From positions 1-19,525 of IMG/VR virus record IMGVR_UViG_2579778674_000015: DNA of 19,525 nt. One strand, 5' to 3'. A program made the position numbers and the translations under genes. Positions 795 to 19,525 of the stretch are shown piece by piece (positions within the stretch are counted from its first letter, which is position 1; each line of letters begins with the position of its first letter). This DNA comes from a virus (lineage: Duplodnaviria > Heunggongvirae > Uroviricota > Caudoviricetes). Under the pieces are notes generated by a model. That model was given only the letters and a program-made list of their open reading frames with translations, was not told the origin of the DNA and made no database searches.

Positions 795-1847
795 TTATTT
801 CCCCACCAGCTCGTTTATCTCTTTCACTGTCTGGTTAAACCGCTCTGACTCAAGCTCAACACCTAAGGCCCGACGCCCCAGCGCCATTGCTGCTTTTATT
901 GTGGAACCGGATCCCATAAAAAAATCAGCAACCAGATCACCAGGTCGACTACTGGCATTGATTATTTGCCTGAGCATATCCGCCGGTTTCTCACACGGAT
1001 GTTTACCCGGGTAGAACTGAACGGGTTTATGCATCCAGACATCGGTATAAGGCACGGAGACTGATACGGAGAAATAGCGCCGGAGAGATTTAAACTCATC
1101 CAGCAATTCAGAATATTTGCGATTCAGTGAATCATAAGATGCCACCAGCTGGTGGTGTGGTTGTTCCAGTTGTTGTTCCTGAAACTTCTCTGCCGCTATA
1201 CGGGAAAACAGTGCCTGTAACTTCCGATAGTCAGCCTCATTCGGCAACTGCCACTGACTGGCACCAAACCAGTGGGAAACCATATTTTTCTTACCTGTGG
1301 CTTCGGCAATTTGTTTTGCCGTTATACCCAGTTCGGCACGAGCATCCCTGAAATACGATATCAGCGGTGCCATTATGTGCTGTTTGAGTTCCCTTTCTTT
1401 TGCCGCATAGCCGTCACTTTTGCCGCGATATGGCCCCTGGTAATGTTCAGCAAACAGAACGCGCTCTGTGGCAGGAAAATATGCGCGCAGACTTTCTTTA
1501 TTACACCCATTCCAACGTCCGGACGGCTTCGCCCAGATGATATGGTTAAGCACGTTGAAACGTTCACGCATCATGATCTCAATATCAGATGCCAGGCGAT
1601 GCCCACAGAACAGGTAAAGGCTTCCGGCAGGTTTTAACACCCGCCAGAACTGGGCCAGACAGTGGTCCAGCCACTTAAGGTAATCTTCGTCCCCTTTCCA
1701 CTGATTGTCCCAGCCGTTGGGTTTCACCTTGAAGTACGGCGGATCGGTAACAATCAGGTCAATGGAATCATCAGGCAGGGACTGAATAAAATGCAGGCAA
1801 TCAGCGTTGATTAAATCAACACTGTTTATTTTTACAGTATTTTTCAT
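795..1847 (-). CDS. Orphan DNA N6-adenine methyltransferase, beta-class (DPPY motif IV N-terminal, FxGxG motif I C-terminal)
   Basis: 350-aa ORF with IVTDPPY near residue 30-36 and FFMGSGST near the C-terminus (motif order IV then I). No adjacent restriction endonuclease ORF. No obvious SD before the ATG at 1847. Confidence 0.8.
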
Positions 1848-5436: not shown

Positions 5437-5759
5437 GCTTTCAGGCCTCTCTCATGTAACCAGTGGGTTGCACGCAGCCTTGCGTTTTCCTCACCGGCAA
5501 GCAGTGAGCGGATAATCCCGACCGCCTCGCTGTCGTCGTCCTTCACCGCGGTATGAAGCGTTATCCCCCGGGCCACGCCACGCTTTATCGTGATGACACC
5601 TTTTTTCTCCAGTGCGCGAAGATGCTCCACCGCTGCATTCACTGAACGGTATCCCAGCATGGTTGCCACCTCCTGATTGGTTGGCGGGAAGCCACGTTCT
5701 TTCTGGTAAGAAATCAGCATATCCAGCACCTGCTGCTGGCATTGAGTTAATGTCGTCAT
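5433..5759 (-). CDS. LexA-like DNA-binding domain protein lacking the S24 peptidase domain
   Basis: 108 aa; QQQVLDMLISYQKERGFPPTNQEVATMLGYRSVNAAVEHLRALEKKGVITIKRGVARGITL parallels the LexA N-terminal winged HTH. No Ser/Lys peptidase segment follows. ATGA-coupled to the upstream gene. Confidence 0.65.
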   Translation of the reverse strand: MTTLTQCQQQVLDMLISYQKERGFPPTNQEVATMLGYRSVNAAVEHLRALEKKGVITIKRGVARGITLHTAVKDDDSEAVGIIRSLLAGEENARLRATHWLHERGLKA

Positions 5760-6409
5760 GCCGCCATCTCCCTGACCAGTTTTTCCGCCTGCTGGCGAAC
5801 CTGCGCCAGAAAGGCCTCACCACATGCCTCAAGTTCATCGCGCCCGATGTAGCTGATTGCCGGTCCCTTCCAGGTCTTGTCGAAAACAGCAATAGCACCA
5901 GCGAAGAAAGCGCCTGTCGGCACCTGCTTCTCGTCCTTCGGGATAAACCAGGCTGGCAGTTCAAAACCAATACGCCCGCGAATAAAAGCAATATGGTCTG
6001 CATCTTCCGGCCACCAAACTTCGCTGGTGGCAGCTTTGATCAGGAAAACATAGCGCCCGCCTTTATCACGCATAGCACTGGCATGTTTCATGATGTAACG
6101 CATGCCGGTGATGTATTGCCCCTCATGCTGACTGGCGCGGCTGTACGGGGGATTACCAAAGGCAGCACCTTTAAGCTCCGCAAGACGTTCTGACCAGTCA
6201 TGCGCCAGCGCGTTGTCTTCCGCAGTGTAATAAGCGGCACATTTGGCGTTATCACCATCAGTAAACAGATCCAGAACAAACGGGCCAAACAGGGTGTTAA
6301 TTCCCCAGAAAATGTTGTCCGGCGTGCGCCACTGATCGCCCACTTCCTTCAGTTCATGGGCTGGTTTGTTCCGCAGCTCCACCAGCGCCTGGCAATATTT
6401 ATTACTCAT
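5756..6409 (-). CDS. Phage Dam-like N6-adenine DNA methyltransferase (NPPY motif)
   Basis: FGNPPYSR motif in a ~217-aa nin-region protein. Start taken as MSNKYCQ at 6409, overlapping the upstream stop (TAATG); the track's 6442 start is the alternative. Confidence 0.75.
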   Translation of the reverse strand: MSNKYCQALVELRNKPAHELKEVGDQWRTPDNIFWGINTLFGPFVLDLFTDGDNAKCAAYYTAEDNALAHDWSERLAELKGAAFGNPPYSRASQHEGQYITGMRYIMKHASAMRDKGGRYVFLIKAATSEVWWPEDADHIAFIRGRIGFELPAWFIPKDEKQVPTGAFFAGAIAVFDKTWKGPAISYIGRDELEACGEAFLAQVRQQAEKLVREMAA

Positions 6410-6897
6410 TAAGCCCCCACGTAATTCCCTGACAGATACCACTCTTCACCCGATGCAGCGCGCTTGCTGCTTTTCCGTAAGCACCGCTCACGATGCGCCA
6501 GAAAATTGTTTCGTTCTGGCTGGGAGTGGCTTTCACGGAATGCCGCCATCCACACCGTTGCAGCTCGACGGAATAAGCCCCTGGACTCCAGTTCTTCAGC
6601 CTGGCGGGTCAGGCACAAAATCACCCGGGGGTCGTTAGTGCCGACATAGAAATTGCGCACAGGTCTGGTTTCACGAACAGATTGTGGTTCCGGCTCCTGC
6701 GCTCTCTCAGTCAGGCGCGGGAAATGTCTGCGTGTATCTCCTTCACAACGGTGAGCCACACGCCCACTCTGACGTAACTTGCTTGCTGACTGCAGAACGC
6801 GCTGCCGTGAGTAACCAGCAAAAGCATCCGCAATGTCTCCGGAAGTACACCCCGGATGGGCTTCAATGAATTTCTGAACTTCATTCAAAAGACTCAT
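6409..6897 (-). CDS. Hypothetical protein with N-terminal winged-helix-like segment, basic C-terminus
   Basis: ORF immediately after the initiator-like gene. ATG at 6897 (MSLLNEVQKF...) preferred over the track's GTG at 6903. No family recognised. Confidence 0.45.
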   Translation of the reverse strand: MSLLNEVQKFIEAHPGCTSGDIADAFAGYSRQRVLQSASKLRQSGRVAHRCEGDTRRHFPRLTERAQEPEPQSVRETRPVRNFYVGTNDPRVILCLTRQAEELESRGLFRRAATVWMAAFRESHSQPERNNFLAHRERCLRKSSKRAASGEEWYLSGNYVGA

Positions 6898-12385: not shown

Positions 12386-12922
12386 ATGTCATTTATCAAA
12401 ACTTTTTCTGGGAAGCATTTTTATTATGACAGGATAAATAAAGACGACATCGATATTAACGATATCGCGGTTTCCCTTTCAAATATCTGTCGCTTTGCCG
12501 GTCATCTTTCGCACTTCTACAGCGTCGCCCAACATGCGGTTCTTTGCAGCCAGCTGGTGCCGCAGGAATTTGCTTTTGAAGCGTTAATGCATGATGCAAC
12601 AGAAGCGTATTGCCAGGACATTCCCGCACCACTGAAACGCCTTCTTCCTGACTATAAACGGATGGAAGAAAAAATAGACGCCGTAATCCGTGAGAAATAC
12701 GGGTTACCCCCGGTTATGAGTACACCCGTGAAATATGCCGATCTCATCATGCTGGCAACCGAACGCCGCGATCTCGGGCTTGATGATGGCTCTTTCTGGC
12801 CTGTACTGGAAGGCATCCCGGCAACAGAGATGTTCAACGTGATTCCACTGGCACCGGGCCATGCCTACGGGATGTTTATGGAACGTTTTAACGATTTATC
12901 GGAGTTACGCAAATGCGCATGA
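12386..12922 (+). CDS. HD-domain phosphohydrolase (YfdR-like 5'-deoxynucleotidase family)
   Basis: HFYSVAQH and HDATEA metal-binding motifs; GGAG SD 7 nt before ATG at 12386 (track starts at a GTG at 12359). Confidence 0.7.
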   Translation: MSFIKTFSGKHFYYDRINKDDIDINDIAVSLSNICRFAGHLSHFYSVAQHAVLCSQLVPQEFAFEALMHDATEAYCQDIPAPLKRLLPDYKRMEEKIDAVIREKYGLPPVMSTPVKYADLIMLATERRDLGLDDGSFWPVLEGIPATEMFNVIPLAPGHAYGMFMERFNDLSELRKCA

Positions 12923-13275
12923 ATGTTTTCGAAATGGAAGGGTTTCTTCGCGGGAAATGTGTACCGCGAGATCTGAAAGTGAACGAAACAAATGCTGAGT
13001 ACCTGGTACGTAAATTCGACGCGCTTGAAGCTAAATGTGCGGCACTGGAAAACAAAATAATACCAGTGTCAACTGAACTGCCACCAGCAAATGAAAGTGT
13101 TCTGTTATTTGATGCTAATGGAGAAGGCTGGCTGATTGGCTGGCGTTCTCTCTGGTACACCTGGGGACAAAAAGAAACCGGAGAATGGCAGTGGACATTT
13201 CAGGTCGGGGACCTTGAAAACTTCAATATCACTCACTGGGCAGTAATGCCCAAAGCGCCGGAGGCTGGAGCATAA
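12913..13275 (+). CDS. Hypothetical protein (DUF551-like Trp-rich C-terminus)
   Basis: 120 aa, GGAG SD, start overlaps the upstream stop. C-terminal GWLIGWRSLWYTWGQKETGEWQW...THWAVMP. Confidence 0.55.
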   Translation: MRMNVFEMEGFLRGKCVPRDLKVNETNAEYLVRKFDALEAKCAALENKIIPVSTELPPANESVLLFDANGEGWLIGWRSLWYTWGQKETGEWQWTFQVGDLENFNITHWAVMPKAPEAGA

Positions 13276-13895
13276 TGACCACATTTACCAATAAAGAACT
13301 GATTAAAGAAATCAAAGAACGAATCAGCAGCCTAGAGGTTCGAGACGATATTGAGCGCCGTGCTTATGAAATTGCTCTGGCATCGCTGGAAGAGGAGCCG
13401 GTGGCATGGCTGCATTCAGACAATGGCTTAGGTATTCCGGCAATAACCAGGAGCAAAAACATTGCTGACAGTTGGTTATCAATGGGCTGGTATGTTCAGC
13501 CGCTATATATAGCCAAGCCAGTACTGGTGGTGCCAGATGCTCGTCCGTCTTTAAATAATGGCATAGTCGGTTTTGATGAAGGCTGGAACGCCTGCCGCGC
13601 CACCATGCTTCATGGTGCCAAACCTGTAAGCCAGACTTACAAGTTGAACAAGCTGTCGGGCAACTCTCCGGTAACTCAGGATGGTTGGATAAGCTGTAGT
13701 GAGCGAATGCCGAACGATAAACAGTATGTTTGGTGTTGGGGTAAGTCTTACGGCTGGACTGAGTGCGATACCTTCGAAGGGTATTACGATTGGTCGAGAA
13801 ACAAATGGTGGGCAGTTACTGACGATGGGGAAGAACCGGCATCGAAAGTAACCCACTGGATGCCGCTACCGGAGCCACCGCAGGAGGTGAAGTAA
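13275..13895 (+). CDS. DUF551-like protein
   Basis: 206 aa; start overlaps the upstream stop (TAATG). C-terminal WISCSERMPNDKQYVWCWG...WWAVTDDGEEPASKVTHWMPLPEPP. Confidence 0.55.
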   Translation: MTTFTNKELIKEIKERISSLEVRDDIERRAYEIALASLEEEPVAWLHSDNGLGIPAITRSKNIADSWLSMGWYVQPLYIAKPVLVVPDARPSLNNGIVGFDEGWNACRATMLHGAKPVSQTYKLNKLSGNSPVTQDGWISCSERMPNDKQYVWCWGKSYGWTECDTFEGYYDWSRNKWWAVTDDGEEPASKVTHWMPLPEPPQEVK

Positions 13896-14089
13896 TGAAC
13901 AACTTAATGACAACTAAACAAGTCGCCGACTTCTGTGGCGTTTCAGTATCGACCGTTCTTCGCTGGAACAGCGTAAACAGGAGAACTGGCCAGAAATACA
14001 GGCCTGACTTTCCAGATCCTGATATTAAATCCTGCCCAAATAAATGGGCATCACGCAAGATATACAGGTTTGCTGGAGTTATTGAGTGA
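13895..14089 (+). CDS. Excisionase / AlpA-family HTH protein (putative Xis)
   Basis: 64 aa with strong SD AGGAGGTGA. TTKQVADFCGVSVSTVLRW is a MerR/Xis-type HTH. Last gene of the plus-strand block. Confidence 0.5.
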   Translation: MNNLMTTKQVADFCGVSVSTVLRWNSVNRRTGQKYRPDFPDPDIKSCPNKWASRKIYRFAGVIE

Positions 14090-14124
14090 TGGGTATTAGC
14101 TCATATCAGAACTAATACCCATCA
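14087..14124. repeat. Perfect 13-bp inverted repeat (hairpin, 12-nt loop) at the xis-like stop codon
   Basis: TGATGGGTATTAG (14087-14099) and CTAATACCCATCA (14112-14124). No flanking T/A tract on either strand. A second weaker inverted repeat GACACAG...CTGTGTC follows. Confidence 0.6.
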
Positions 14125-14291
14125 ATGACACAGAGCCAACTACCCACCCTGTGTCAGGGGCTAACTTTTAACACCATAATTCACCGCTAGATAAAAACTG
14201 TATTGCATTGCACGAGCGGCGCAGCATTATCAGTTAGAGTGTCTTTACCTTGTTAGGCTCCACAGTTCGCACTGTCCAACGCCTGTCACTT

Positions 14292-17200
14292 TCACACGCT
14301 GCGCCTTCGAGAATATTCATTTAATCGCTGATAACGAACATCTTGCTCCAGTTGTGGAGCAGCTTGAACAATTTGAAGCAAGCATTGCCCCAACTCTCGA
14401 GGCCCCCAGTGTTGTTCGGCAATCACGGCATTCAGCAGGGATAGAGCGTCCGCAGGATATCGGCTGCAAATATCTGATTCTAGCAAAAGGCGAACGTCGT
14501 AGCTAAGGTGTTCGAGCGGTTGCAGCCAGTCCTGCACCACTGCCAAAGCCGCCGGAAATTCACCTCGGGCAGCAATCACCATACGAGTCAACGATTCGGA
14601 TATGCGTGGGGTGGCCAAGTTGCGGGACTTTGGCCAAACCTGTTGCCAAAATGGCTGGACACGATTTTTCCAATACTCCTCGCGCTGATCGCCCGCACCT
14701 TCAAGTGCCTGGTATAACGCCTGCGCGGCTACCTCCAGACCTTCTTGTGGAAGAGCACTAATTGCCGTTCGGAACTCCTCCACGGTATATCCCTCGGTAG
14801 GGCCCAGAGCTGCATAAGTCAGGAAAATAGCGAATTGCTGCCGGTGCTCGCCAAGATCAGAATAGTGATTGGCGCTCTCCAAAAAATCTGACTTGAAAGC
14901 TATCAGCAACGGTTCATACAGGCGTGGCGACCAGAGGAAGCCTTCCCACACAGCTTTTGCTTCGACGGGATTACTCCAAGCAAACAAGGGCAATAGATAC
15001 TGTTCGGTCCAAGGTCGATCTACGCGAAAAAATGCGATCAGCCGCGACCCCAGCAACACCCGACCATGGCGGAATAGCTCTATCTGTACATTACACAATT
15101 TGGTGAAAAGTGTTTTCAATTCAACAGGAAGCAAATCATTGTCATTCGGGTTCTGTTTGAACCATAGGGTGATCAGTGATTGCGTGACATGCCCAATGGG
15201 ATGATTGATCGCCGTAGAAACAGGATCATAGGTCTCAATTCCGTTTCGAATGGTGCTAGACTCTGGGCTTGTTTCTATCATCAGAACCCGACGACAAAGG
15301 GCCAGTAGAATCTCCTCGTGGCAGAGGATGGTCTTCGAAGCCTCCTCCATCCACCAAGTGACAGCGTGGGAAATCTCCTGAAGTACTGCGTCAGGCATGT
15401 CAAGCACCAACGGTGCGGCGTACCGCCACGAACGCAAAATCATCCCTGGTTCAGCCCAAGTCTGCAGAGCTTCACGCCACCGACCAACAGGCCACACATC
15501 ATCTTGTGATAGTTTACGTAACGCATACAGACTGTGAAAAAAGCGCGTACGGCAAACATCACTCCAAGTGTCCTCATAGAAAGGCAGTCTTTCTGGCATA
15601 GGCTTTGCGAGCCATTGCACTAATTCCTGCCACTTACGGGGCGCAATGTCGACATCTATACTCTCCTCGAAGCCTGGATCACCGGTTCCGCTCATCCAGT
15701 GAGAGAATTCATCACGCTCGTTGGTTGCCAGTTGCCATTTTGGGTATGCTGTGGATATTTCCGTCAAACGTGTAGCCGCAGACTCTCCCAAAACAAGGCC
15801 CGCTCCCCTGAGCTTCGCTAGACACAACCAGACGGAATGAGCCACCAAATAATGCCACCTGTCTGCTTCCAAATTATCCTCGTACATCTCGCGCGGAGGC
15901 CCTGCCAAGATAGCAGTTTCCAGACGCTCTTGTGCAATTCCTGTCAGATGTCGTCCCTGCAAAACAAACAGTCTGAATACCTCTCGCCGAGTATCCGTGG
16001 CCCACAACCACCATGAACCGTCCTCTAACAACCAATTAACCCACCGCTCAGGTGGTATGCAGTTGTCTTGGCTTGCGGCAAACAGTGCCAGACGTTTGAA
16101 GGTGGGATATGGCAACTCAAACCAATTCTGAGCAATGCGCGAGGCCTGATCGCTGTCTTTGGCTCGAACGGCTAACCATGAATCCCGAAGTAATTCAATC
16201 AGGCTCACCCAATCGCGGAACCCCCGGTTCTGCCAGTGCGGAGTGATGGACGGCAAATCCCAATGCGAGCGGTCGTGACGATCGTCGGACTCTCCCAACT
16301 CCCGCAACAAGTCCAGTGCATCACGCAACAACTGCTGAAAATCTTCCAACAGGTATGGCAAGGACGATTTCCATGACTCGTCAGCAAGGTCGAACAGGGT
16401 TGAACGTACGTAATCAGCAGTCAGCACCAGCTCCCAATCCACCAATTGCTTGATTCGCAAGGGTTCATCAGTGCTGCTCGAATCGTCTTCACTATAGCGA
16501 AACGGCCGCCTCAACATAACCTTGGGAGAAAGCAACCCGCGTAACTCCAAGCGCAATGTAGTCGTCAAGCCTTCATTCTTTAAGCGGTTTTGCCAACGAT
16601 ACAAATCCAGGTTCTGCAATGGCGATTTCACACGACCACTAAGCAGAAGCCGCCATAAAGTAGACATAGGTGGACCAGGAATAGCCAGGGGGGAATGCAA
16701 GAGAATTTCATCTAACTCAGAAGTCTTACGCTCCCGCATCAGTGCTGCTAAGCGATCTAGTTCGCTCTCAATCAGAAACATCCAACGGTCGTGTATTTGT
16801 CCGCCGCGTTCAGCAATCCATATGATCAACCTAGGGTCGCCCAGATAACGAACTAGCCAACGGGCTATATGGGACATTACGTCATCCCATTTGCTAGCAC
16901 TGACACATCCAGAAACCAGCGACATCTGCGGGGCCAGCTCATAGGGCGCAGGACGCTGAACCAGACTGAATCGGAGTTTCGGGTCAATTTCGACATGCGG
17001 AGATACACAAAAGCGTGGCAGATCGCTGTATTTAAATCGTTCGTCCGAGAAAGCTTTCAATAACCAATCCAGCGGCGGTGCAGGATTGAGTTCCGCAAAG
17101 CGTTTTGCTGGTAAACCTGATTTATCTGACAAGGCCCACAACATCCGACCAACGAAATCGTCCTGACGAGTGCTGTCCTGCGGGCGGGCCAGAGCATGTT

Positions 17201-18119
17201 TGACGACTATAGCCTTTTTGCCCTGTATACCATCTCGATAAGTATCTGCCCAAGCGTGCAACGTTTGATGCAGCACTGAATGATCAGTGGAGCCCGCCGG
17301 TACGGTGTAAAGGATAGGAGTGACCCCTTTGGCCTCCCACTCGATGGCTTTCCGGTGCTCCTGCCCCGGCTCACACTCCCCCAGTGCCCATACTTGTGGT
17401 GTGACTTCACCGAGCCTCCGATCTGCTGCAAGCGCATCCATCATGTAGCGCAGTACCGGGTCGTTGATGCTGTAGCCAACGAAGCAGACCACATAGTTAC
17501 GAAATAACTCACTCACAAAGCGAGCTGCCCAACGCTCAGTGAGATAAGCCAAGCCAAAGTCACCGCTGGTAACAACCAGACGATTCAGGGCAGTATCATC
17601 CGCCTTTTCCGGTAACAGCCCATGCAGGTATACAAGTCCATCCCAGCGGCTGTTTTTTGGAATTGGCAGCATCGGCGCTACATAGGCCTGAAAAGCCTGG
17701 CCTGTACGTTTAGCTGCCACATGAAAGAGACGGTCAAAGTTGGTAGTGACCAATCGAAGGGCACCCTCGCGGCTACGGGCTAAACGTAACAGCGCCGCCT
17801 GAGTATCAATAGCGCCCCTACGACGGAGCTTTGGCTTAAGGGCTTTTTCCAACGCGCGTCGGACGGCTATACGCTGCCCTGGTAAGCGCCGTTCCAGCAA
17901 ATCTAATGTGCCGTCAAATTGCCCACGCTCGAAAACCTCACGCTCAATTTCTGAAAGTGTTGTTCCGTTCCTCTGGTAAATTAGTTCTACCAACCCTTTG
18001 AAACCAGGTAAACCAGCAGGGTAGGAAATGCCTGCTCCACAGAAGAACACAACGCGCCCTTCCTCGTGCGCCTGCAAAAGCTCATCAGGAATATCAGGGC
18101 CGTTGGTAATGAATTGCAT
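14292..18119 (-). CDS. Large SIR2-domain protein (1275 aa): N-terminal sirtuin-like NADase domain plus ~1000-aa unassigned Trp-rich C-terminal region; candidate single-gene anti-phage defence
   Basis: Uninterrupted 3.8-kb ORF, strong SD AGGAGG 7 nt before ATG at 18119. N-terminus has VVFFCGAGISYPAGLPGF (glycine-rich NAD-binding loop), LVTTNFDRL (N127) and LVYLHGLL (H166), matching the Asn/His arrangement of SIR2 defence NADases. The remainder shows no motif I recognise. Confidence 0.8.
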   Translation of the reverse strand: MQFITNGPDIPDELLQAHEEGRVVFFCGAGISYPAGLPGFKGLVELIYQRNGTTLSEIEREVFERGQFDGTLDLLERRLPGQRIAVRRALEKALKPKLRRRGAIDTQAALLRLARSREGALRLVTTNFDRLFHVAAKRTGQAFQAYVAPMLPIPKNSRWDGLVYLHGLLPEKADDTALNRLVVTSGDFGLAYLTERWAARFVSELFRNYVVCFVGYSINDPVLRYMMDALAADRRLGEVTPQVWALGECEPGQEHRKAIEWEAKGVTPILYTVPAGSTDHSVLHQTLHAWADTYRDGIQGKKAIVVKHALARPQDSTRQDDFVGRMLWALSDKSGLPAKRFAELNPAPPLDWLLKAFSDERFKYSDLPRFCVSPHVEIDPKLRFSLVQRPAPYELAPQMSLVSGCVSASKWDDVMSHIARWLVRYLGDPRLIIWIAERGGQIHDRWMFLIESELDRLAALMRERKTSELDEILLHSPLAIPGPPMSTLWRLLLSGRVKSPLQNLDLYRWQNRLKNEGLTTTLRLELRGLLSPKVMLRRPFRYSEDDSSSTDEPLRIKQLVDWELVLTADYVRSTLFDLADESWKSSLPYLLEDFQQLLRDALDLLRELGESDDRHDRSHWDLPSITPHWQNRGFRDWVSLIELLRDSWLAVRAKDSDQASRIAQNWFELPYPTFKRLALFAASQDNCIPPERWVNWLLEDGSWWLWATDTRREVFRLFVLQGRHLTGIAQERLETAILAGPPREMYEDNLEADRWHYLVAHSVWLCLAKLRGAGLVLGESAATRLTEISTAYPKWQLATNERDEFSHWMSGTGDPGFEESIDVDIAPRKWQELVQWLAKPMPERLPFYEDTWSDVCRTRFFHSLYALRKLSQDDVWPVGRWREALQTWAEPGMILRSWRYAAPLVLDMPDAVLQEISHAVTWWMEEASKTILCHEEILLALCRRVLMIETSPESSTIRNGIETYDPVSTAINHPIGHVTQSLITLWFKQNPNDNDLLPVELKTLFTKLCNVQIELFRHGRVLLGSRLIAFFRVDRPWTEQYLLPLFAWSNPVEAKAVWEGFLWSPRLYEPLLIAFKSDFLESANHYSDLGEHRQQFAIFLTYAALGPTEGYTVEEFRTAISALPQEGLEVAAQALYQALEGAGDQREEYWKNRVQPFWQQVWPKSRNLATPRISESLTRMVIAARGEFPAALAVVQDWLQPLEHLSYDVRLLLESDICSRYPADALSLLNAVIAEQHWGPRELGQCLLQIVQAAPQLEQDVRYQRLNEYSRRRSV

Positions 18120-18169
18120 TCCTTTTCCTCCTATCCAATGTGCACGTTCATTCGAGTAAATGAAGGCAA

Positions 18170-18215
18170 GGGGTTACATCTTATTATACCGACCGTGCAA
18201 ATCCGGCTTCCTAGC
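18170..18215 (-). promoter_or_regulatory. Candidate promoter for the SIR2 gene in the int-SIR2 intergenic region
   Basis: Perfect -10 TATAAT on the minus strand (plus 18183-18188), ~60 nt upstream of the ATG; only a poor -35 (TTGCAC-like, wrongly spaced). Confidence 0.25.
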
Positions 18216-18301
18216 AAGCTACTTTACTTGCCAACTCATAATGTCCGAACTCCGAACAAAGCGGACTGCTAGATTTGATTGCGTTCTAGCTACGCAAAAT
18301 A

Positions 18302-19525
18302 TCATTTCGAGCCTGAACGAGTACAAGTAACAATCGATTCAACTCTCTCCCACCATGCCTGGTAGGCTTTACGCTGTTCTTCTAGATAATCACTCTTGTC
18401 ATAAACTTGCCATACACCTGGCAGTTTATGACCGAGCATTATTTCAGCAATATGAGGCGCAGTAAGATCAGAAAAGTTTGTTCGTGCTGTTCGTCTCAAA
18501 TCATGAAGAGACCAGTGAGGAAATTGATACCCCAAACGCCGCCATGCGTACTGCATTAAATTGTAAGGCAGCGACTGCAATGATGTCCGACCAACTGGTT
18601 CCCTGCTTCCTTCCTTAGTAAAAAGCATATCGGAACCGTTGTTCATAGAGATAACGTATTTTATAAGCTCTTCAACCGGTTCAATAATGGGCCGCTTTAG
18701 CGGTTCGCCTGTTATATCCCCTGTCTTATGTCGTTCTGGTGGTACAGTCCATATTTTATTAATGAAATCAAAATCGTCCACCTTGGCAGTAATTAGCTCT
18801 GAACTACGGCAACCAAAATGCAGCAATAGTTTAATGAAGGCCCGGTATTTAGGAACCATTCGAGAACCATCGATCGCAGCATAAAGGATTTTAATTTCAT
18901 CATGTGTCAGAAACCGTTTCTTCTGACCTTTACGGATATCCATATCTTTACCCGTGATATCCGACAGCGGGCGAGTTTCAATGAGCTTTCTCTTATACGC
19001 CCAGACATGGGCCTGCTTTGCGTTAATTAGCAATCGGTCTGCTATTGCTGGAGTCTTAGTGCTAAGAGGCTCCAGGACTTCTAACCAATCATGCAATGTA
19101 GCTGCATCGTGAGGGATATTCCCGATTTTAGAGAACAGGTGCAGCTCAAACGAGCGGAGTATCTGTTCAGAACCTTTTTTATTTTTTACACAATATGCTT
19201 CATACCAAGCACGGATCACAGATTCTACCGTCATGGCTTCAGTAGCTTTACGTTTTTCTGCCAGCTTGACCAATCGTGGATTGCGGTTTGACTCGAGTTC
19301 ACCACGAAGACGGATAACTTCTTCTCTGGCCTCTTTTAGTCCAGTTGCCGGGTAAGTTCCGATATCAAGACGCTCACCTTTCCCCGCCCACTGATAACGA
19401 TATTGGAACACTACGCGACCTTTCGGTGATACTCTAACAGACAGACCATCACGATCGGATTTAACCAAAACCTTATCACGTTCCTTTCCAACGACTGAAC
19501 GCAACCACGCATCAGACAGCGCCAT
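18302..19525 (-). CDS. int: Tyrosine integrase (P4-type, N-terminal arm-binding domain plus catalytic domain)
   Basis: 407 aa; start codon is the last three bases of the window (MALSDAWLRS...). Typical N-terminus (GLSVRVSPKGRVVFQYRYQWAGKGERLDIGTYP), HDLRRTARTN box and C-terminal Tyr region (WQVYDKSDY). Confidence 0.9.
   Translation of the reverse strand: MALSDAWLRSVVGKERDKVLVKSDRDGLSVRVSPKGRVVFQYRYQWAGKGERLDIGTYPATGLKEAREEVIRLRGELESNRNPRLVKLAEKRKATEAMTVESVIRAWYEAYCVKNKKGSEQILRSFELHLFSKIGNIPHDAATLHDWLEVLEPLSTKTPAIADRLLINAKQAHVWAYKRKLIETRPLSDITGKDMDIRKGQKKRFLTHDEIKILYAAIDGSRMVPKYRAFIKLLLHFGCRSSELITAKVDDFDFINKIWTVPPERHKTGDITGEPLKRPIIEPVEELIKYVISMNNGSDMLFTKEGSREPVGRTSLQSLPYNLMQYAWRRLGYQFPHWSLHDLRRTARTNFSDLTAPHIAEIMLGHKLPGVWQVYDKSDYLEEQRKAYQAWWERVESIVTCTRSGSK

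What the first reader, a model, noticed from the sequence alone, without database searches (positions are those of the whole stretch)
14090..18301. Defence gene occupies the variable int-proximal cargo slot with its own expression signals
The SIR2 gene lies directly downstream of int on the same strand, convergent with the xis-like gene, and separated from both by non-coding DNA (14090-14291 and 18120-18301). It has its own strong SD and a perfect TATAAT upstream. Established knowledge: the slot next to int is a classical moron position in lambdoid/P22-like prophages (for example gtr O-antigen modification genes next to int). Inference: the gene is exchangeable lysogen-benefit cargo expressed from the prophage.
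Basis: partly seen in the sequence, partly recalled or inferred. Interest (0 to 1): 0.6.

Follow-up and report, generated by a model that had tools for sequence, protein, structure and literature searches.

The report
Dsr1 in a prophage defence hotspot
The large gene next to the integrase is the already-characterised E. coli anti-phage NADase Dsr1, sitting in a swappable slot between the excisionase and integrase genes of a lambda-like prophage, where related prophages carry at least a dozen other, mostly defence-related, genes.

Summary
ORF 14292-18119 (-) lies downstream of int (18302-19525, -) and converges on a 64-aa excisionase (13895-14089, +). The spacers are 202 and 182 nt. AGGAGG sits 7 nt before the ATG, and a perfect TATAAT lies at 18183-18188.

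The gene is Dsr1 (NCBIfam equivalog, 2056 bits against a cut-off of 1400). A locus with identical DNA is annotated WP_029488749.1, the EcDsr1 protein studied experimentally: it is triggered by a phage capsid protein and acts as a SIR2 NADase.

The slot is variable. About 700 of 5426 complete E. coli genomes carry this integrase, always beside yjjG in the loci I read, and only 76 have dsr1. In 29 loci read (25 chromosomal, 4 phage genomes), I found at least 12 alternative cargos between the same excisionase and integrase: AbiU, dGTPase, dCTP deaminase, Borvo, PDC-S59, a dsRBD-HNH protein and five unknowns.

High-identity homology breaks at the xis and int stop codons. Weaker, hairpin-bearing flanks run to about 14170 and 18240, so dsr1's upstream region belongs to the cargo.

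An independent promoter is not shown. There is no usable -35, the TATAAT is lost in the 93% allele, and no terminator separates int from dsr1. Composition is unremarkable.

The gene is known. The slot is a new example of a known kind of prophage defence hotspot.

The parts
13895..14089 (+). Excisionase (xis), 64 aa. It is the conserved left anchor of the slot.
   Evidence: PHROG 1553 excisionase, E 7.7e-36, full length. 92-100% nucleotide identity in the 27 loci checked by blastn, whatever the cargo. Annotated as excisionase in phages cdtI and 2H10.
14087..14170 (.). Diverged but structurally conserved hairpin pair just after the xis stop. It belongs to the backbone, not the cargo, and is probably a 3'-end or terminator element of the early-left/xis operon.
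   Evidence: The fold is much more stable than shuffles, z -4.5 on the + strand and -5.9 on the - strand. It aligns across 10 cargo types. RNAalifold finds 13 pairs, 4 of them with compensatory changes.
14171..14291 (-). Cargo-specific region downstream of the dsr1 stop codon.
   Evidence: It aligns only with the other dsr1 allele (L006) and with no other cargo type. It has no canonical terminator and folds no better than shuffles, z -0.44.
14292..18119 (-). dsr1, 1275 aa: defence-associated sirtuin 1 (EcDsr1).
   Evidence: NCBIfam NF041818 Dsr1 equivalog, 2056 bits against a cut-off of 1400. PADLOC Dsr1 model PDLC02183, 2731 bits over the full length. DNA 100% identical to loci annotated dsr1 / WP_029488749.1. 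The exact protein is named Dsr1 in NCBI.
17313..17753 (-). Core of the N-terminal SIR2 NADase domain (Pfam SIR2_2, aa 123-269). The GAGIS NAD-binding motif lies upstream at aa 28-32. Asn127 and His166 are the putative catalytic residues.
   Evidence: Pfam PF13289, E 9.2e-23. Alignment to the KomC SIR2 NADase places Dsr1 His166 on KomC His146, the residue mutated in PDB 9xvc.
18127..18132 (-). Shine-Dalgarno sequence AGGAGG, 7 nt before the ATG.
   Evidence: Read directly from the sequence. Conserved in the 93% allele.
18183..18188 (-). Perfect -10 hexamer TATAAT. It is a candidate promoter element for dsr1 but is unproven.
   Evidence: One of 2 TATAAT hexamers in the window, against 5.7 expected. 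It lies in the cargo-specific part of the spacer. No -35 was called, and the hexamer reads TCTAAT in allele L006.
18241..18301 (-). Diverged backbone flank downstream of the int stop, shared at roughly 60-80% identity with other cargo types.
   Evidence: MAFFT alignment across cargo types. No consensus structure was found, and the minus-strand scan found no terminator in this spacer.
18302..19525 (-). Tyrosine integrase, 407 aa. It is the conserved right anchor of the slot, and its 5' end faces the attachment site beside yjjG.
   Evidence: Pfam Arm-DNA-bind_3, Phage_int_M and Phage_integrase domains. Present in 700 of 5426 E. coli genomes at 95% identity or more. Adjacent to yjjG in every chromosomal locus read.

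Best explanation
The finding is the native locus of EcDsr1. This single-gene anti-phage system sits in the xis-int slot of a lambda-like prophage family that integrates between prfC and yjjG in E. coli.

The slot behaves as a defence hotspot. The excisionase with its downstream hairpins on one side, and the 3' end of int on the other, are conserved anchors. The DNA between them is replaced wholesale among relatives. The most likely route is homologous recombination in the anchors between co-resident or co-infecting phages (inferred).

dsr1 travels as a cassette of about 4.07 kb (window ~14171-18240). The cassette includes its own ribosome-binding site and about 120 nt of private upstream DNA.

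For function, I rely on published work on this protein and its family. The C-terminal sensor recognises the major capsid protein of an infecting phage; T1 and ZL19 of the Drexlerviridae were tested. Recognition switches on the N-terminal SIR2 domain, which hydrolyses NAD+ and stops phage replication. The lysogen, and with it the prophage, is protected.

Expression in the lysogen is most likely from a weak constitutive promoter in the 182-nt spacer, possibly supplemented by read-through from int. This step is inferred, not shown.
For: Identity of the gene:
- NCBIfam Dsr1 equivalog, 2056 bits against a cut-off of 1400.
- PADLOC Dsr1 over the full length, and Pfam SIR2_2.
- DNA 100% identical to loci annotated dsr1 / WP_029488749.1.
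- The catalytic His aligns with the KomC NADase His146.

Function, from the literature:
- bioRxiv 10.64898/2026.01.04.697583 names EcDsr1 as WP_029488749.1. It reports defence against some Drexlerviridae phages and the major capsid protein as the unique trigger. Loss of the NADase domain abolishes toxicity.
- Garb et al. report NAD+ depletion by a DSR1.

Variability of the slot:
- The integrase is in 700 genomes and dsr1 in 76.
- At least 12 cargo types occur between the same anchors: Dsr1, AbiU, dGTPase, dCTP deaminase, BovA (Borvo), PDC-S59, a dsRBD-HNH protein, four PHROG families of unknown function and a two-ORF cassette.
- A probe made of ten cargo fragments hits 542 genomes. The median is one hit per genome and the maximum two. 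The types are roughly evenly represented.
- Boundaries: high-identity homology ends at 14086-14139 and resumes at 18257-18320. Weaker flank similarity runs to about 14170 and 18240.

Wider context:
- The same architecture occurs in the phage genome records cdtI, Ayreon, 2H10 and PhiR63_1.
- Dsr1 homologues in 45 other species are almost never next to a relative of this integrase; only 3 of 45 are. The gene therefore moves independently of this phage.
- The window belongs to a prophage with a full lambda-type structural module.
Against: - No transcript data exist for this locus.
- The -10 hexamer has no -35 and no TGn extension, and the promoter scan did not call it. It is not conserved in the 93% allele.
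- A consensus promoter scan of all cargo upstream regions gives no more hits than shuffles, 5 against 4.4.
- No terminator or conserved structure lies between int and dsr1, so dsr1 could simply be co-transcribed with int.
- dsr1 is not a compositional outlier within the window.
- The 99%-identical int allele and dsr1 occur in almost the same genomes, 66 against 67. Much of dsr1's present spread is therefore vertical or clonal inheritance of one prophage lineage, not repeated exchange.
- No empty slot was found, and no recombination event was observed directly.
- The literature results come from plasmid expression, not from this prophage.
Confidence: 0.85

Rival explanations
1. dsr1 has no promoter of its own. 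It is the distal gene of an int-dsr1 operon and is expressed only by read-through from the int promoter near the attachment site.
For: - The two genes share a strand and are only 182 nt apart.
- No intrinsic terminator is predicted on the minus strand between them.
- The int-downstream flank has no conserved structure and folds no better than shuffles.
- The TATAAT lacks a -35 and is lost in the second dsr1 allele.
Against: - The slot accepts cargo in either orientation. The 331-aa unknown, dGTPase, dCTP deaminase and PDC-S59 lie on the xis strand. Slot genes therefore cannot in general depend on int transcription.
- Every cargo read keeps at least 108 nt of AT-rich private upstream DNA.
- A perfect -10 on the correct strand is unlikely by chance.
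[quoted passage not shown] Whether that applied to EcDsr1 is not stated.
Confidence: 0.25
2. dsr1 is a fixed, lineage-specific gene of one prophage clone rather than exchangeable cargo. The differences between relatives reflect ancient divergence, not ongoing replacement.
For: - The 99%-identical int allele occurs in 66 genomes and 99%-identical dsr1 in 67. This is tight linkage.
- 72 of the 76 dsr1 carriers share the whole 12900-19525 context.
- The flanks next to the cargo have diverged to 60-80% identity, which suggests old junctions.
Against: - The same cargo sits beside different early-left gene sets. Examples are the 331-aa unknown in L002 against L007/L012, and dGTPase in L008 against L015.
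- Different cargos sit beside near-identical yfdPQR/DUF551 blocks.
- A second dsr1 allele at 93% identity sits in a rearranged backbone that lacks the DUF551 genes.
- Dsr1 homologues occur in 45 other species without this integrase.
- Homology breakpoints fall exactly at the gene ends.
Confidence: 0.1
3. Cargo is exchanged by a dedicated site-specific mechanism that uses the hairpin-bearing flanks as recombination sites, in the manner of integron attC sites or another cassette system, rather than by general homologous recombination.
For: - Conserved hairpins with compensatory changes immediately flank the cargo on the xis side.
- By eye, a GTCCGCT...GCGGAC(A/G)TT hairpin recurs on both flanks in several cargo types, each in the same orientation relative to its neighbouring gene.
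- Cargo occurs in both orientations.
- A tyrosine recombinase gene is adjacent.
Against: - The integrase is an ordinary arm-binding phage integrase.
- The int-side flank has no consensus structure.
- The flanking hairpin motif is absent from the dsr1 left flank itself.
- Breakpoints are scattered over 14086-14139 and 18257-18325, not at one fixed site.
- Only one cargo module is ever present, never an array.
- The similarity between the two flanks was judged by eye and was not tested statistically.
Confidence: 0.04

Closest known systems
EcDsr1 / DSR1 (Gao et al. 2020, recalled from memory; Garb et al., bioRxiv 2021.12.14.472415; bioRxiv 10.64898/2026.01.04.697583)
   Same: A locus with DNA identical to the window is annotated with the same protein accession, WP_029488749.1. 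It shares the N-terminal SIR2 NADase and the large C-terminal sensor. The protein is reported to be triggered by a phage major capsid protein.
   Different: Nothing differs at the protein level. The papers I read do not discuss its native position between int and xis of a lambda-like prophage.
P4 psu-int and P2 defence hotspots; Vibrio K139-like cI-int hotspot (Rousset et al. 2022, PMC9122126)
   Same: These also have conserved flanking phage genes, one of which is the integrase in P4 and in the K139-like phage. The contents are mutually exclusive and highly diverse, rich in known defence systems mixed with unknowns, and occur in either orientation.
   Different: The element here is a different type: a lambda-like siphovirus integrating at prfC/yjjG. 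The flanks are different (excisionase and integrase). The cargos read are mostly single genes. I found no description of this slot in the library I searched.
E. coli integration hotspot #35, prfC-yjjG (Hochhauser et al. 2023, PMC10121019, S1 Table)
   Same: This is the same chromosomal site. It is listed as a position where defence-carrying mobile islands integrate, occupied in 37 of 1113 genomes.
   Different: That study describes the chromosomal integration site. It does not describe the variable slot inside the prophage.
gtr O-antigen modification genes next to int in P22-like phages
   Same: These are also int-proximal accessory genes that benefit the lysogen and vary among relatives.
   Different: The gtr genes are a three-gene operon that modifies the receptor, a form of superinfection exclusion at the cell surface. 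The cargos here are intracellular defence genes. I did not examine this example.
DSR2 (Bacillus subtilis)
   Same: It is also a single large protein with an N-terminal SIR2 NADase that is activated when its C-terminal domain binds a phage structural protein (abstracts listed).
   Different: DSR2 senses the tail tube protein and has a different C-terminal fold. It gave no PADLOC match here; only the Dsr1 models matched over the full length.

Membership tests
Dsr1 (defence-associated sirtuin 1) | Full-length match to the curated family models, above the trusted cut-off | tested here: met
   NCBIfam NF041818 equivalog, 2056 bits against a cut-off of 1400, covering aa 1-1271. PADLOC Dsr1 model PDLC02183, 2731 bits, positions 1-1275 of 1275.
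Dsr1 (defence-associated sirtuin 1) | N-terminal SIR2-type domain with the NAD-binding glycine motif and catalytic Asn and His | tested here: met
   Pfam SIR2_2, E 9.2e-23. The GAGIS motif is at aa 28-32 and Asn127 lies in TTNFD. His166 in YLHG aligns with His146 of the KomC NADase.
Dsr1 (defence-associated sirtuin 1) | Single-gene system with no obligate partner gene | tested here: met
   dsr1 is the only ORF between xis and int, both in the window and in the diverged allele.
Dsr1 (defence-associated sirtuin 1) | C-terminal Avs7-like sensor domain that binds a phage major capsid protein | not tested
   No structure was predicted here. This rests on the literature for the protein under the same accession.
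Dsr1 (defence-associated sirtuin 1) | Confers phage resistance through NAD+ depletion | not testable with these tools
   Reported for EcDsr1 (WP_029488749.1) and for a DSR1 expressed in B. subtilis.
Prophage-encoded defence hotspot (in the sense of Rousset et al. 2022) | Conserved flanking genes in many related elements | tested here: met
   xis is 92-100% identical and int 92-100% identical in the 27 loci checked by blastn. The integrase is in 700 genomes.
Prophage-encoded defence hotspot (in the sense of Rousset et al. 2022) | Diverse, mutually exclusive gene content between the flanks | tested here: met
   At least 12 cargo types were found in 29 loci. Probes for ten of the cargos hit 542 genomes, with a median of one and a maximum of two per genome.
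Prophage-encoded defence hotspot (in the sense of Rousset et al. 2022) | Enrichment of known anti-phage systems among the contents | tested here: met
   Dsr1, AbiU (2.6e-111), dGTPase (8e-105), dCTP deaminase (1.6e-163), BovA of Borvo (5.6e-241) and the candidate PDC-S59 (3e-72) all match PADLOC models.
Moron (autonomous transcription unit in a prophage; definition recalled from the lambdoid-phage literature) | Own promoter | tested here: inconclusive
   A perfect -10 is present and is unlikely by chance. There is no -35, the scan did not call it, and it is not conserved in the second allele.
Moron (autonomous transcription unit in a prophage; definition recalled from the lambdoid-phage literature) | Own terminator | tested here: not met
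   No terminator-like site lies in the cargo-specific region downstream of the dsr1 stop codon, 14171-14291. The strong hairpins at 14087-14160 belong to the shared backbone.
Moron (autonomous transcription unit in a prophage; definition recalled from the lambdoid-phage literature) | Nucleotide composition distinct from the surrounding phage genes | tested here: inconclusive
   dsr1 is 52.0% GC, against 44-45% for its immediate neighbours, but it lies inside the 44-56% range of the window's genes. Its codon usage is not distinct.
Moron (autonomous transcription unit in a prophage; definition recalled from the lambdoid-phage literature) | Inserted between genes that are adjacent in related phages | tested here: not met
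   None of the 29 loci read has an empty xis-int junction. The slot always holds something.
Integron-like gene cassette | IntI-type integrase with attI, and attC-flanked cassettes in arrays | tested here: not met
   The integrase has the arm-binding domain of phage integrases. Only a single cargo module is ever present. Junction positions vary. The int-side flank has no consensus structure.

The most novel reading that the evidence does not exclude
The xis-int slot of this yjjG-integrating lambda-like prophage family appears to be an undescribed defence hotspot. Its uncharacterised occupants would then be new anti-phage genes, discoverable by position in the way the P2 and P4 hotspots were used. 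The candidates are PHROG families 5157 (331 aa), 7779 (342 aa), 8440 (239 aa) and 30399 (413 aa). They also include the 868-aa dsRBD-HNH protein, a two-ORF cassette of 150 and 160 aa, and whatever occupies the roughly 23% of loci not covered by my ten probes.
Probability: 0.5. Interest if true: 0.5.

Novelty: new member of a known kind. Interest (0 to 1): 0.3.

Why it matters
- The gene itself adds nothing new. EcDsr1 has already been studied, under the same protein accession.
- What this work adds is its native context. Dsr1 is one of at least a dozen alternatives, found at roughly equal frequency, in a precisely bounded slot of a common E. coli prophage family (about 13% of complete genomes).
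- About half of the alternatives are validated single-gene defence systems. The unknown occupants are therefore good candidates for new ones.
- The bounded anchors give a simple handle for mining more cargos: the excisionase with its hairpins on one side and the int 3' end on the other.
- The context raises a testable self-immunity question. Does a capsid-sensing NADase stay silent when its own lambda-like prophage is induced and makes capsids?

Tried and rejected
- **Consensus promoter and terminator scan of 13600-19525.** It found no promoter call upstream of dsr1 and no terminator between int and dsr1. Totals were at shuffle level.
- **The same promoter rule applied to the upstream regions of 11 cargos.** It gave 5 hits against 4.4 in shuffles, so it is uninformative. 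Sequence alone cannot settle the promoter question.
- **GC, GC3 and codon-usage comparison.** dsr1 is not an outlier within the window.
- **Consensus structure of the int-downstream flank.** None was found, so it is not a conserved terminator.
- **Integron-like or site-specific cassette idea.** Rejected on integrase type, variable junctions and single occupancy. The apparent similarity of the two flanking hairpins was judged by eye only.
- **Literature searches for a prior description of this slot.** None was found, but the library is partial. Brenes & Laub 2025 on E. coli prophage defences is not held.
- **PDB sequence search.** No solved Dsr1 structure was found. The closest is the KomC SIR2 NADase, E 2e-4.
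- **Not attempted.** I did not run a structure prediction or fold search, because the family assignment was already unambiguous.

Full report
**Observation**

The window holds one long ORF at 14292-18119 on the minus strand, 1275 aa. A 407-aa tyrosine integrase lies directly upstream on the same strand at 18302-19525. It has arm-binding, central and catalytic domains.

On the plus strand a 64-aa ORF at 13895-14089 converges on the long ORF. It matches PHROG 1553 'excisionase' over its full length, E 7.7e-36. It is annotated as excisionase in phages cdtI and 2H10.

The two spacers are 202 nt (14090-14291) and 182 nt (18120-18301). AGGAGG lies at 18127-18132, 7 nt before the ATG. TATAAT lies at 18183-18188 on the correct strand. 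The hexamer occurs only twice in the whole window, against 5.7 expected, so its position here is unlikely to be chance. The description is accurate.

**Identity of the gene**

The protein is Dsr1:
- NCBIfam equivalog NF041818 scores 2056 bits against a cut-off of 1400.
- PADLOC's Dsr1 model matches end to end at 2731 bits.
- Pfam finds SIR2_2 at aa 123-269.
- The GAGIS motif, Asn127 and His166 are present. His166 aligns with the catalytic His146 of the KomC SIR2 NADase.
- The DNA is 100% identical to E. coli loci whose product is annotated 'anti-phage defense-associated sirtuin Dsr1', WP_029488749.1. The exact protein carries that name in NCBI.

That accession is the 'EcDsr1' used in bioRxiv 10.64898/2026.01.04.697583. 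The paper reports three things. The protein protects E. coli against a few Drexlerviridae phages. The phage major capsid protein is its unique trigger, sensed by a domain shared with Avs7. Disrupting the NADase domain abolishes toxicity. Garb et al. reported that a DSR1 depletes NAD+ on infection. I take the mechanism from these papers; it was not tested here.

**Genomic context**

The window is the early, lysis and integration half of a lambda-like prophage. In a genome matching the window, a complete lambda-type head and tail module follows. The prophage lies between prfC and yjjG, with int next to yjjG. Hochhauser et al. list this site as integration hotspot #35, occupied in 37 of 1113 genomes.

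**Is the slot variable?**

Yes.
- The integrase occurs at 95% nucleotide identity or more in 700 of 5426 complete E. coli genomes, once per genome in nearly all. dsr1 occurs in 76.
- I read 25 chromosomal loci and 4 phage genomes that carry this integrase. All have the same excisionase, at 92-100% identity in the 27 loci checked. Every chromosomal locus is beside yjjG.

Between excisionase and integrase they carry:

| Cargo | Size and evidence |
|---|---|
| Dsr1 | two alleles, 93% identical |
| AbiU / AIPR | PADLOC E 2.6e-111 |
| dGTPase | PADLOC E 8e-105 |
| dCTP deaminase | PADLOC E 1.6e-163 |
| BovA (Borvo) | 710-aa CHAT protein, E 5.6e-241; also in phages cdtI and Ayreon |
| PDC-S59 candidate | 431 aa, E 3e-72 |
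| dsRBD-HNH protein | 868 aa |
| Four PHROG families of unknown function | 331, 342, 239 and 413 aa |
| Two-ORF cassette | 150 + 160 aa |

A probe of ten 500-bp cargo fragments hits 542 genomes, with a median of one hit per genome and a maximum of two. In an evenly spaced sample of 60 hits the types number between 2 and 9 each, and Dsr1 accounts for 9. About 23% of integrase carriers are not covered by these ten probes and presumably hold other cargos. No empty slot was seen.

**Boundaries**

High-identity homology between the window and loci with other cargos ends at 14086-14139, at or just past the xis stop. It resumes at 18257-18320, around the int stop.

A multiple alignment shows that weaker similarity continues further:
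- About 85 nt past the xis stop, to roughly 14170.
- About 60 nt past the int stop, to roughly 18240.

The xis-side flank is a pair of hairpins that fold far better than shuffles, z -4.5 and -5.9. They keep 13 pairs across ten cargo types, 4 of them with compensatory changes. The int-side flank has no consensus structure.

The dsr1 cassette is therefore about 14171-18240. It includes the SD, the TATAAT and about 120 nt of private upstream DNA.

**Expression**

This is the weak point of the interpretation.
- The -10 hexamer has no acceptable -35 and no TGn extension, and the scan did not call it.
- It reads TCTAAT in the 93% allele, although the SD and several upstream blocks are conserved.
- There is no terminator between int and dsr1, so read-through from int is possible.

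Three points favour autonomy:
- The slot takes cargo in both orientations.
- Every cargo keeps at least 108 nt of AT-rich private upstream DNA.
- The laboratory that tested EcDsr1 says it normally retains native promoters for such genes, though it does not say so for this gene specifically.

A consensus scan over all cargo upstream regions is no better than shuffles. Sequence alone cannot decide the question.

**Composition**

dsr1 is 52.0% GC, against 44.6% for int and 44.1% for xis. It lies within the 44-56% range of the window's genes, and its codon usage is not distinct.

**Exchangeable, or merely different?**

Evidence for exchange:
- The same cargo sits beside different early-left gene sets, and different cargos sit beside near-identical ones.
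- A second dsr1 allele sits in a backbone that lacks the DUF551 genes.
- Full-length Dsr1 homologues occur in 45 other species. Only 3 of these have even a distant relative of this integrase nearby.

Evidence for vertical spread:
- The 99% int allele and dsr1 co-occur almost perfectly, 66 against 67 genomes. The present distribution of this dsr1 is therefore largely one prophage lineage spreading.

I infer replacement by homologous recombination in the anchors. I did not observe an event.

**Comparison with known systems**

The gene is already known. The arrangement is the same kind of thing as the P4 psu-int and P2 hotspots and the Vibrio cI-int hotspot described by Rousset et al.. I found no description of this particular slot in the searchable library. 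That library is incomplete, and a directly relevant paper, Brenes & Laub 2025, is not held.

**Verdict**

It is unproven on independent transcription.
- The finding is ordinary for a specialist. It has modest practical value as a source of candidate defence genes.

Noticed in passing
window 14087-14170; same position in L002-L019: A pair of hairpins just after the excisionase stop is kept with every cargo type, although the sequence has diverged to about 60-70% identity. Four of 13 pairs show compensatory changes. It may be the terminator or a processing site of the early-left/xis operon.
   Followed up: partly
window 18302-18325; int 3' ends in L002-L026: The last 0-8 codons of int fall inside the recombination zone. 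Homology breakpoints and stop-codon positions differ with the cargo, giving integrases of 404-412 aa.
   Followed up: partly
L002 4564-5559, L003 5160-6188, L005 4632-5351, L009 3499-4740, L010 2286-4892, L074 3924-4900: Uncharacterised proteins occupy the same slot as five validated defence genes. They are PHROG families 5157, 7779, 8440 and 30399, an 868-aa protein with a dsRNA-binding motif and an HNH domain, and a two-ORF cassette. None matches a PADLOC system model apart from the HNH domain.
   Followed up: partly
E. coli genome hit H9 (NZ_CP115312.1); L016 2893-4118; L074 1755-2968; L075 2650-3878: The slot and its cargos decay in some genomes. IS1203 is inserted in dsr1, the dGTPase is split into two ORFs, and IS3-family elements lie beside or near the cargo.
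   Followed up: no
window 13895-14089; L001 19806-20000; L072: The conserved 64-aa excisionase is left unannotated by PGAP in most of the E. coli records read. In this haplotype the intact 206-aa DUF551 ORF (13275-13895) is annotated as two partial pseudogenes.
   Followed up: no
L072 6529-7554 (major capsid protein of the same prophage): The resident prophage encodes a lambda-type major capsid protein, while EcDsr1 is reported to be triggered by a Drexlerviridae capsid protein. Whether Dsr1 ignores its own phage's capsid on induction is an open question.
   Followed up: no
window 795-1847 and 5756-6442: The prophage carries two DNA methyltransferase genes, one beside the lysis genes and a Dam-like N6-adenine methylase in the nin-like region. 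These are possible anti-restriction functions.
   Followed up: no
phage records LC727876-LC727902: The same integrase is carried by 27 Stx1a- and Stx2c-converting phages and by the cdtI toxin-converting phage. This defence slot therefore travels with toxin-converting phages. One of them, LC727881, carries dsr1.
   Followed up: partly
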